From contig OX597824.1 in NCBI GenBank assembly GCA_951406725.2, forward strand, positions 92,752,001 through 92,816,000: a DNA stretch of 64,000 bases, given 5' to 3'. This document shows positions 15,655-57,009 of the stretch, piece after piece. The position numbers and the translations under genes are program-made. The notes below the pieces were generated by a model, which saw only the letters and a program-made list of their open reading frames with translations, did no database searches and was not told the origin of the DNA. This DNA is from Octopus vulgaris. Its lineage: Eukaryota. Numbering within the stretch: position 1 is the stretch's first letter; the number at the start of each line of letters is the position of its first letter.

Positions 15655-16580
15655 TGCATATACATACATTGACATATGTGTATATATATGGATGTATATG
15701 TATTTATGTGTCTATTTATGTCTGCGTAGAGAATGTAGTGAATAAAAATGCACAGAAAGTTTATGCAAGATAATATATATATATGGATACCAGCATAGCG
15801 ATCATGAGTTCAATTCCTAAGCCTAGTGTGCATTGCTTTGTTGTGGAAAGCGCTTCCTCCGACGGTGTTTTGGGATCCCTTCGACATCTAAAGCGTGGTA
15901 CACAGTGCCCCTATTCGATCACATCGAGGTGATGGAAGGAGTGACCTAATATGTGGTACAATAATTTGATCATTATAAACAAATCATTCGACAAAAGCTG
16001 AATGCTCATACGTCTTCTTCGATGGGAGAGTCCATTACATGCGGAAAAAATATTTACGAAGTCAACCGGTTTCGATCGACTTAATTATGACCAAGAAGTT
16101 ACTAATAATGTTATAATTTCATGTTATCATTGGAAATTTTCATTTTAAATATGCCTAAAGTTGTGATGGACAGCAAACTTAAGACCAGAAGTGTTTGAGA
16201 GCTATTTGCATATGTTCACATTCTACATTACCGTTTGCCGTAGACAAAATTTCCCGCTTATAAAAAACGTCATAGAACACGATGATAAGATAGCGCTTCT
16301 AGTGGACTGATCGATGCATTTGGAATTCCTTTGTTTTCCTCAATACTAAATACTATGCGGGGTAACAATAAACTGAATAAAACCGTGGGCGGATCCATGA
16401 TCCCTCGGGACTGATGGATGTCTGTTATATATACACAAATGCGCAAAGAATTGCACTGGTTAACGTTTTGCTTTAGCGTATTTCAATCAAACGAAATTTA
16501 ATTTTTATAGAATTATATAGAATGGAATTTAATATCCATTAGAATGATACAACAAATACAACGAAAATGAAGATACATAC

Positions 16581-20530: not shown

Positions 20531-20948
20531 CTATTTCTTTATTACCCACAAGGGGCTAAACATAGAGGGGACAAACAAAGACAGACATAAGTACTAAGTC
20601 GATTACATCGACTCCAGTGCGTAACTGGTACTCGTTTTATCGACTCCGAACGAATGAAAGGCAAAGTCGACCTCGGCGGAATTTGAACTCAGAACGTAAC
20701 GACAGACAAAATACCTATTTCTTTACTACCCACAAGTGGCTAAACACAGAGAGGATAAACAAGGACAGACAAACGGATTAAGGCGATTACATCGACCCCG
20801 GTGCGTAACTGGTACTTAATTTATCGATCCCGAAAGAATGAAAGGCAAAGTCGACCTCGGCGGATTTTGAACTCGCAAGGTAACGACAGACGAAATACGG
20901 CTACGCATTTCGCCCGGCGCGCTAACGTTTCTGCCAGCTCGCCACCTT
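20531..20948 (-). mobile_element. SINE family C (Meta-domain-like core) with tandem 184-bp 3' unit
   Basis: Minus strand GGCGAGCTGGCAGAAACGTTAGC head; GTCGACTTTGCCTTTCAT core occurs twice; imperfect TSD TTCTCAC(AA/CC)CCATC. Confidence 0.88.
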
Positions 20949-56257: not shown

Positions 56258-56300
<43 letters not shown>

Positions 56301-56307
56301 ATGATGA

Positions 56308-56356
<49 letters not shown>

Positions 56357-56505
56357 AAACGATCTCGACCTCGCACCCACAAGGGTAACAAGAGAGACAG
56401 AAACAGACAGAAACAAAGAAAATGCCACTTGTATTTGAACACTATGCAAATATTCTTTAAAAAAAACTTTGCTTTTAATTTTTCCAAAATTAAATTGCTC
56501 TCTAT

Positions 56506-56550
56506 ATTTACAGTTGAAAAAGTTTCAATGACTGAAACCGGTACTGAAAT
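56506..56550 (+). ncRNA. Type I hammerhead with compensatory U3-A8 core
   Basis: ATTTACAG TTGAAAA AGT-TTCAATG-ACT GAAAC CG GTA CTGAAAT. Confidence 0.7.
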
Positions 56551-57009
56551 GATTTTTATAAAAATATATTAGCATTTTCTACCTTGAGGTTTTTCCCCAT
56601 ACATATATATGCAGACAGAGACAGAGAGTGAGAGAGAGCGAGAGAGTGTGAGAGAGAGAGAACACAAAGTTATTTTACTGTACACGGGTAGAAATGTAGG
56701 AAAAATAGAAGTTGAAAATGAACTGAAAATAGAATACTTTTTATTAATATATTTGAAGCTTTAACACGTTTCACATATAGACTGAAATATAAATTTCATA
56801 TATAAACTAAGCATGTGTTTAATCTCTAGAAACACTTGAGAGGAAAATATTCAGAGCATTGATTGTTTGGTTTTTGTTAGTCAACCGTGCCAACCTTTAC
56901 TTACAGCGCTAAACATTGTCACTTGATACTAACACAGGGACATAGCGGGGAATCTACAAACAATTCTAAGACTAGTCATGTGACTATCCACTACCAATCA
57001 AAACCTATT

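What the first reader, a model, noticed from the sequence alone, without database searches (positions are those of the whole stretch)
56506..56550. Natural U3-A8 compensatory hammerhead
The core reads UUGAAAA instead of CUGANGA. Both partners of the tertiary C3-G8 Watson-Crick pair are changed to U-A. Stems I and II, GAAAC, the palindromic ACCGGT and the GUA site are intact. Compensatory 3-8 swaps are known to retain activity. A double change implies selection for catalysis, and standard CUGANGA searches would miss it.
Basis: partly seen in the sequence, partly recalled or inferred. Interest (0 to 1): 0.8.

Follow-up and report, generated by a model that had tools for sequence, protein, structure and literature searches.

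The report
Penelope-element hammerhead with U3-A8 core
This is a real copy of the small hammerhead self-cutting RNA motif carried in the tail of a common Penelope-type jumping gene; its swapped U-A core pair is the norm for the whole family and is already in print, and this particular copy is a truncated relic that is predicted to misfold and is likely inactive.

Summary
Observation confirmed: 56511-56546 reads CAG|UUGAAAA|AGUU-loop-GACU|GAAA|CCGG|UA|CUG, the only hammerhead-shaped hit in the window. It lies in a ~240-base 3' stub of a Penelope-like retrotransposon whose longer copies encode RT and GIY-YIG. The double change is old: this genome's U3-A8 families form one clade among mostly C3-G8 relatives, and 19 of 20 hammerheads beside related elements keep a Watson-Crick 3-8 pair. 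It is not new: natural U3-A8 cores, even UUGAAAA in a Penelope element, are published (PMC4209133, PMC3088659), and this scan noted the variant in other genomes. Cutting is untested. This copy has no nearby partner, is predicted to misfold, and U3 can pair with A17. Beyond the finding: U3-A8 outnumbers C3-G8 8,904 to 168 among ACCGGT-type motifs here, and a tandem hammerhead family keeps amplified C·A and U·G intermediates.

The parts
56366..56606 (+). 5'-truncated 3' stub (pseudo-LTR part) of a Penelope-like retrotransposon; no ORF, no 30-40 base tail
   Evidence: Matches 19 other loci, mostly at 80-90% over about 180-245 bases; 86% to the 3' end of ORF-bearing copy L053; no ORF remnant in the window or 10 kb either side
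56511..56513 (+). Stem I, 5' strand (CAG)
   Evidence: Sequence; stem I covaries across motif types
56514..56520 (+). Core box 3-9, UUGAAAA: U3 (56514) and A8 (56519) in place of C3 and G8
   Evidence: the same heptamer is in S. mansoni motif 4 of PMC4209133 supplement
56521..56533 (+). Stem II and loop (AGUU-UCAAU-GACU); 56524 is U here but C in most copies
   Evidence: predicted to be displaced by a misfold in this copy
56534..56537 (+). Core box G12-A13-A14-A15.1
   Evidence: Sequence
56537..56542 (+). Palindrome ACCGGU: would form helix III only between two copies
   Evidence: Monomer with the closing pair scores +3.9 kcal/mol, the ACCGGU duplex -8.3
56543..56543 (+). A17; predicted cut 3' of this base; complementary to U3
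   Evidence: Numbering from sequence; P(U3-A17) 0.68
56544..56550 (+). Stem I, 3' strand (CUG), plus a possible extension AAAU with 56506-56509 that relies on a minority U at 56507
56313..56355 (.). (TA)n then (CA)n microsatellite at the 5' junction, the likely insertion target
   Evidence: Sequence; many other copies also abut (TA)n

Best explanation
The 45 bases are a minimal type I hammerhead motif with a U3-A8 core inside a 240-base 3' stub of a Penelope-like retrotransposon; the family form likely cuts the element's RNA slowly after GUA when two copies pair through ACCGGU, but this copy is predicted to misfold and is likely inert. Shown: the anatomy, the host element (one ORF with RT, zinc-finger-like linker and C-terminal GIY-YIG), U3-A8 as family consensus, covariation of stem I and of the 3-8 pair across families. 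Inferred: C3-G8 became U3-A8 once, on the branch leading to this genome's group of element families, because the 3-8 tertiary pair that positions the 2'-OH of nucleotide 8 had to be kept; helix III forms between two RNAs, probably in trans or with help from the element's protein, since neighbouring copies are mostly inverted; cutting is weak, further damped by U3 pairing with A17. The window copy was inserted by target-primed reverse transcription into a (TA)n tract and has decayed since.
For: Family state: 660 of 721 exact-pattern copies U3-A8, 1 C3-G8; in copies found through the ORF end, U3 in 19 of 19 and A8 in 18 of 19; no other letter at 3% or more at 56514 or 56519 in four runs with four organism labels. 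Host element: RT and GIY-YIG upstream in longer copies; intact 784-aa ORF with inverted upstream repeat and one-sided tail in L129, about 90% identical over the RT region. Fold: stem I was not in the search pattern, yet 13 of 16 hand-picked U3-A8 motif types have 3 or more pairs (mean 4.1 against 0.72 for arms swapped between types). Pair 3-8: 19 of 20 distinct hammerheads beside related elements from other hosts are Watson-Crick, all four types, shuffle mean 11.7, 0 of 200,000. History: 7 own-genome rows form one clade, 99/99, among relatives whose detected motifs are mostly C3-G8. Precedent: PMC4209133; a Penelope hammerhead that cuts only with its protein, PMC11167929. This copy: 15 of 164 columns off the majority, misfold, no partner in the window.
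Against: No cleavage data. U3-A8 was not rescued in a complete double-mutant scan of a type III hammerhead (PMC9901934). The minimal Penelope hammerheads tested cut poorly even as dimers, and cutting was dispensable for insertion in vitro with no RNA-seq ends at the site. Unpaired or wobble 3-8 states amplified in a tandem family here, and a young sister family has a fixed extra A in the GAAA box. The lowest-energy dimer of the window copy is not the double hammerhead (-20.2 against -12.5 kcal/mol). The sister group of the U3-A8 clade is unresolved. Several of the 16 motif types are related, so they are not 16 independent cases.
Confidence: 0.75

Rival explanations
1. The family motif keeps the hammerhead shape but is no longer a working ribozyme; it survives as a structural, dimerisation or protein-binding signal of the element, and U3-A8 reflects relaxed constraint plus AT-biased mutation.
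For: C3·A8 and U3·G8 lineages amplified in the tandem family; fixed extra A in a young sister family; U3-A17 pairing 0.4-0.7 in this family, like the C3-G17 trap of PMC3884650; hammerhead cutting not needed for insertion in vitro; U-A not rescued in one scan; the window is about 33% GC.
Against: U4, G5, A6, A9 and GAAA stay fixed at hammerhead spacing while stem I changes between types (the core was in the search pattern, stem I was not); 3-8 stays paired in 19 of 20 outside motifs, including A-U and G-C forms; the tandem family regained C3-G8 in a young, near-identical lineage.
Confidence: 0.2
2. The window copy itself is an active ribozyme kept by selection at this locus.
For: All 11 core positions match the family in this copy (one search lists no core difference).
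Against: It is one of at least 721 dispersed copies; about 9% diverged; mutated in stem II towards a misfold; no second copy in the window; at the core rate (3.6% a site) most copies keep an intact core anyway; mismatched single changes accumulate among copies with no covariation (C3-G8 1 observed, 0.43 expected, p=0.35).
Confidence: 0.04
3. Chance resemblance in AT-rich DNA.
For: Fold z-score only -0.9; no Rfam hit.
Against: 8,904 genome matches against 42 for the reversed patterns; position just 3' of a Penelope ORF; stem I covariation.
Confidence: 0.01

Closest known systems
Minimal hammerheads (min-HHRs) in the pseudo-LTRs of metazoan Penelope-like elements, U3-A8 variant of Schistosoma mansoni Cercyon (Cervera and De la Pena 2014, PMC4209133; parts 1-2 of 4 and supplement passages read)
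   Same: Type I, short stem I, palindromic helix III needing a dimer, place in the pseudo-LTR, mostly single dispersed copies and inverted pairs; U3-A8 (about 1,300 hits there); S. mansoni motif 4 has the same UUGAAAA core.
   Different: Other host and probably other clade (Neptune-like linker here); stem II is 4 pairs opened by A-U instead of 7-8 pairs opened by an unpaired base and G-C; palindrome is 6 bases; U3-A8 is the large majority among ACCGGT-type motifs here (8,904 to 168), while it was the smaller set in the schistosome (1,300 to 2,000).
Natural U3-A8 hammerheads of Perreault et al. 2011 (PMC3088659; passages read)
   Same: Natural covariation C3-G8 to U3-A8 in several examples.
   Different: That survey is not about Penelope minimal motifs in the passages I saw.
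Protein-assisted hammerhead of the Anolis Poseidon element PAc (PMC11167929; passages read)
   Same: Penelope pseudo-LTR hammerhead whose cutting depends on the 3-8 pair; tail at one end.
   Different: C3-G8 core; there the ORF starts inside the ribozyme; activity measured.
Neptune-type EN+ Penelope-like elements (Craig et al. 2021, PMC8557442; passages read)
   Same: RT then CX2-5CxxC linker then GIY-YIG with CCHH; inverted 5'-truncated copies, 30-40 base tail, (TA)n targets.
   Different: Not placed against named Neptune or Nematis references here.

Membership tests
min-HHR of metazoan Penelope-like elements | Core boxes NUGANNA and GAAA..UH with a Watson-Crick 3-8 pair | tested here: met
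   UUGAAAA, GAAA, UA; U3-A8 accepted variant
min-HHR of metazoan Penelope-like elements | Stems I and II in type I order, supported by covariation | tested here: met
   13 of 16 motif types with stem I of 3 or more pairs, all four pair types next to the core; typical copy folds stem II at P 0.97, the window copy at 0.02
min-HHR of metazoan Penelope-like elements | Absent or palindromic helix III (dimer needed) | tested here: met
   ACCGGT; related motifs use ACATGT, ACTAGT, ACTATAGT, ACTGCAGT, ACCGCGGT
min-HHR of metazoan Penelope-like elements | Extra base between 9 and 10.1 and G10.1-C11.1 pair | tested here: inconclusive
   Read plainly the pair is A-U; reading A56521 as the extra base gives G-C but leaves U56533 over. 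Sister subfamily has G-C with no extra base
min-HHR of metazoan Penelope-like elements | Lies in the pseudo-LTR of a Penelope-like element, sense strand | tested here: met
min-HHR of metazoan Penelope-like elements | Self-cleavage after N17 | not testable with these tools
   No assay; contigs cannot show RNA ends
EN+ Penelope-like element, Neptune type (host family, not the window stub) | Single ORF, RT followed by C-terminal GIY-YIG | tested here: met
   784-aa ORF in L129 with GLKF, DKG, YLDD, YIGQT; Pfam RVT_1 E 3.5e-6 and GIY-YIG E 2.8e-4 on broken L032 pieces, both just under cut-off
EN+ Penelope-like element, Neptune type (host family, not the window stub) | CX2-5CxxC linker and CCHH motif | tested here: met
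   CGRPNCGIC at 650; CSGC at 694-697 with H716 and H733
EN+ Penelope-like element, Neptune type (host family, not the window stub) | Pseudo-LTR, inverted 5'-truncated partner, one-sided tail, microsatellite target | tested here: met
   L127-L130
EN+ Penelope-like element, Neptune type (host family, not the window stub) | Groups with named Neptune rather than Nematis references in an RT tree | not tested
   The tree holds no named references
Non-LTR retrozyme (short tandem repeats with type I hammerheads) | Head-to-tail units of about 170-400 bases, each with a hammerhead | tested here: not met
   Single stub; close pairs among the first 100 rows are inverted (12 of 12 within 4 kb, my count). 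A separate family in this genome does meet it

The most novel reading that the evidence does not exclude
This genome preserves a living record of a catalytic tertiary base pair being swapped: U3-A8 has become the ruling core of thousands of Penelope hammerheads, and a tandem hammerhead family has walked from U3-A8 back to C3-G8 through an amplifying C·A lineage, with U·G side branches. If all four natural states cut at graded rates in dimers, the family gives a ready-made compensatory path across a ribozyme fitness valley, and U3-A17 pairing may be a built-in brake on the Penelope form.
Probability: 0.3. Interest if true: 0.5.

Novelty: new member of a known kind. Interest (0 to 1): 0.2.

Why it matters
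The finding itself adds one more host to a published variant, so it matters little. What is useful: searches keyed on CUGANGA would miss over 90% of the ACCGGT-type hammerhead motifs of this genome (8,904 of 9,507 pattern hits), so counts of genomic hammerheads are likely too low in such lineages; and the tandem family with natural U-A, C·A, U·G and C-G cores offers a direct test of how strictly the 3-8 pair is needed and whether retroelement hammerheads must cut to spread, which is an open question (PMC8557442, PMC11167929).

Tried and rejected
Rfam at gathering score on the whole window and at E<=10 on 56300-56750: no hammerhead family; hits were AT-repeat noise. Expression: no RNA holder listed for the stretch; one run guessed to be RNA holds family sequence but is contigs only and cannot show strand or ends, so nothing is concluded. 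Selection on genomic copies: core 6 of 165 against flank 141 of 1,841 differences in 15 ORF-anchored copies, p=0.06 (7 of 22 aligned rows dropped as duplicate, non-homologous, inverted partner or already in the motif-anchored set): inconclusive. Within-family covariation: none. A direct tandem that would give a dimer in cis: one same-strand pair 7 kb apart proved to be an ORF end plus a separate stub; two 13-kb neighbours likewise. The second GAAACCGGT at window 16065 (minus) has no core box upstream. No tRNA in the window. First tree of the tandem family was distorted by partial rows and was redone. Przybilski and Hammann 2007 and Nelson and Uhlenbeck 2008 are not in the library, so measured U3-A8 rates in tertiary-stabilised hammerheads rest on the summary in PMC3088659. 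Literature searches for a cephalopod report and for U3-A8 found none specific to this host; one supplement file of PMC4209133 could not be searched, figures are not held, and Repbase/Dfam entries could not be checked.

Full report
Observation. A scan for type I hammerheads with positions 3 and 8 left free gives one hit on both strands of the 64 kb: CAG|UUGAAAA|AGUU-UCAAU-GACU|GAAA|CCGG|UA|CUG, with U3 at 56514, A8 at 56519 and A17 at 56543. Rfam has no hammerhead hit here. The fold energy is ordinary (z -0.9), so the case rests on comparison.

Setting. The window lies in a 2.8-Gb, microsatellite-rich eukaryote genome; it looks like an octopus-type cephalopod, which is my recollection and was not tested. 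The motif sits in a piece of about 240 bases (56366-56606) of a dispersed repeat: 589 candidates, 40 scored, at 85-92% identity apart from the self match. Copies share the 3' end, 60-100 bases past the motif, and differ in how far they reach 5'. Longer copies carry, upstream on the same strand, an RT with YLDD, a CxxxxCxxC linker and a GIY-YIG endonuclease. A close subfamily, about 90% identical over the RT region, has an intact 784-residue ORF, an inverted repeat copy at its 5' side and a short tail at one end only (L129). This is the layout that Craig et al. give for endonuclease-bearing Penelope-like elements, and the linker points to the Neptune or Nematis type (PMC8557442, passages). No ORF remnant lies in the window or 10 kb on either side: the window holds a solo stub beside a (TA)n tract.

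Is U3-A8 the family state? Yes. A 29-base pattern with 3 and 8 free has 721 exact matches and 0 for the reversed control. Listing the exceptions gives U-A 660, U-G 20, A-A 14, C-A 13, G-A 5, U-U 5, U-C 2, C-G 1, G-G 1. The one C3-G8 is what independence predicts (0.43, p=0.35), so the copies simply decay. In 25 loci found through the ORF end rather than the motif, 18 held the motif (19 copies): U3 in 19, A8 in 18. In four public runs with four organism labels no other letter reached 3% at 56514 or 56519 (likeness filter 82%).

Is it a hammerhead fold? Looser patterns ending in GAAACCGGTH give U3-A8 5,200 plus 3,704 hits (controls 15 and 27), C3-G8 168 (24), C3-A8 266 (36) and U3-G8 169 (20). 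U3-A8 is thus 94% of 9,507 hits; this holds only for the ACCGGT palindrome. From the first 100 rows of these lists I picked 16 U3-A8 motif types by eye. Stem I was not in the pattern, yet 13 of 16 have three or more pairs next to the core, mean 4.1 against 0.72 when arms are swapped between types, with all four pair types at the first position (some types are related). Several lie just 3' of Penelope ORFs.

Is the change compensatory? At lineage level, likely. In 86 loci of related elements from other hosts the same free scan gave 24 hits in 22 loci and 1 in reversed sequence. Of 20 distinct motifs 15 are C-G, 2 U-A, 1 A-U, 1 G-C and 1 A-A: 19 of 20 Watson-Crick, shuffle mean 11.7, 0 of 200,000 (kin share states, so this is not a probability of independent events). 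In an RT tree of 33 rows the seven rows from this genome form one clade (99/99). The three nearest outside rows with a strict hit are C3-G8; by eye four more near loci are C3-G8 and one is U3-A8. U-A needs three origins on the tree, and the immediate sister group is unresolved. So both letters changed on one old branch, long before this copy was made.

A qualifier from the same genome. A separate family of about 360-base tandem units with hammerheads, retrozyme-like, has 841 pattern hits; among the first 100 rows I count 64 U-A, 23 C-G, 10 U-G and 3 C-A. With 3 and 8 masked, a tree of 50 of 64 units puts a C3·A8 lineage (11 rows at 7 loci, one a three-unit array) sister to the C3-G8 lineage (18 rows), support 91/99, nested among U3-A8 rows; U3·G8 needs three changes and also occurs in several dispersed and tandem copies (root by midpoint; one search gave the same order). 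Helix III stays palindromic while its letters change. So the pair can be swapped one step at a time through states that still amplify, which softens 'a double change implies selection for catalysis'. A young sister Penelope family also carries a fixed extra A in the GAAA box.

How it likely works. By established hammerhead chemistry (recalled, and stated in PMC9901934 and PMC11167929) G12 and the sugar of nucleotide 8 catalyse the cut, and the 3-8 pair positions nucleotide 8. A single copy cannot close helix III (+3.9 kcal/mol), while two ACCGGU tracts pair at -8.3. Close pairs of these motifs are inverted (12 of 12 within 4 kb among the first 100 rows, my count), so a partner in cis is rare and pairing would be in trans or in uncommon tandems, perhaps helped by the element's protein, as shown for the Anolis element, whose hammerhead cuts only with protein and is dispensable for insertion in vitro. 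Activity is likely low: schistosome minimal motifs cut weakly as dimers; only the G-C swap rescued in one complete scan, though PMC3088659 cites covarying 3-8 forms as active in vitro; and with U3 the A17 of GUA can pair with position 3 (P 0.68-0.72), by analogy with the C3-G17 trap (PMC3884650, passages). The window copy is worse than its family: 15 of 164 columns off the majority, and U at 56524, where about 97-99% of laid depth has C, lets GUUUCA capture UGAAAC, so stem II falls to P 0.02 and G12-A14 are 80% paired. It is most likely inert.

Comparison with what is known. Cervera and De la Pena 2014 describe minimal hammerheads in Penelope pseudo-LTRs and a U3-A8 variant with about 1,300 hits in Schistosoma mansoni that their first descriptor missed; their supplement shows the same UUGAAAA core. 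Perreault et al. 2011 reported natural U3-A8 covariation. Earlier notes of this scan found the variant in at least four other genomes; they are unchecked and agree with what I tested. I found no paper on these motifs in this host group, with the gaps named above.

Verdict. Real, well supported as a Penelope minimal hammerhead motif, and a new member of a known kind; catalysis untested; this copy probably dead. Interest 0.2. The genome-wide dominance of U3-A8 and the four-state tandem family are the parts worth a follow-up.

Noticed in passing
G000:C1:20002278-20004542 (L064-L070), C4:80857199-80857949 (L112), C1:67409518-67409906 (L120), C1:120051356-120051739 (L261): Retrozyme-like family of about 360-base tandem units with type I hammerheads, 841 pattern hits; amplified lineages with C3-G8, C3·A8, U3-A8 and U3·G8 cores, and palindromes of several sequences in helix III.
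   Followed up: yes
L059:1-2700 and L082-L106: Young sister Penelope family (96-98% identity among copies) whose U3-A8 motif has a fixed extra A in the GAAA box; an older copy (L166) lacks it.
   Followed up: partly
L016:12, L126:4353 (minus), L153, L155, L156: A second small hammerhead family with 5-6 pair stem I that also shows U3-A8, C3·A8 and C3-G8 states and switches palindrome between ACATGT and ACCGGT; relatedness of the three states not tested.
   Followed up: partly
L122:1796-6100: Another Penelope family with a 736-residue open frame and about 2 kb between ORF end and hammerhead; stem II is flanked by U on both sides in this and several related motifs.
   Followed up: partly
L129:1261-3612: Intact 784-residue Penelope ORF with no upstream ATG in frame before residue 68; the subfamily looks young and very abundant.
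   Followed up: partly
L252-L257: Animal-type Penelope elements inside bacterial metagenome-assembled genomes, probably host DNA mis-binned.
   Followed up: no
L218:1969 and L225:117: Natural-looking A3-U8 and G3-C8 minimal hammerheads beside distant Penelope-like ORFs from other hosts.
   Followed up: no
G000:C29:14829744-16145946: Six copies sharing A3·A8 within 1.3 Mb, probably a segmental amplification of one mutated copy.
   Followed up: no
G000:C1:22056242 (L165), C4:95424311 (L164): A dispersed repeat with CUGAUAA/CUGAUGA and GAAACCGGUC but no adjacent stem I; it supplies many of the C3-A8 pattern hits and may not be a hammerhead.
   Followed up: partly
window 20531-20898: Two tandem copies of a 184-base unit, likely a short interspersed repeat.
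   Followed up: no
window 16055-16085 (minus): Second GAAACCGGT inside a small inverted repeat, without an upstream core box.
   Followed up: partly
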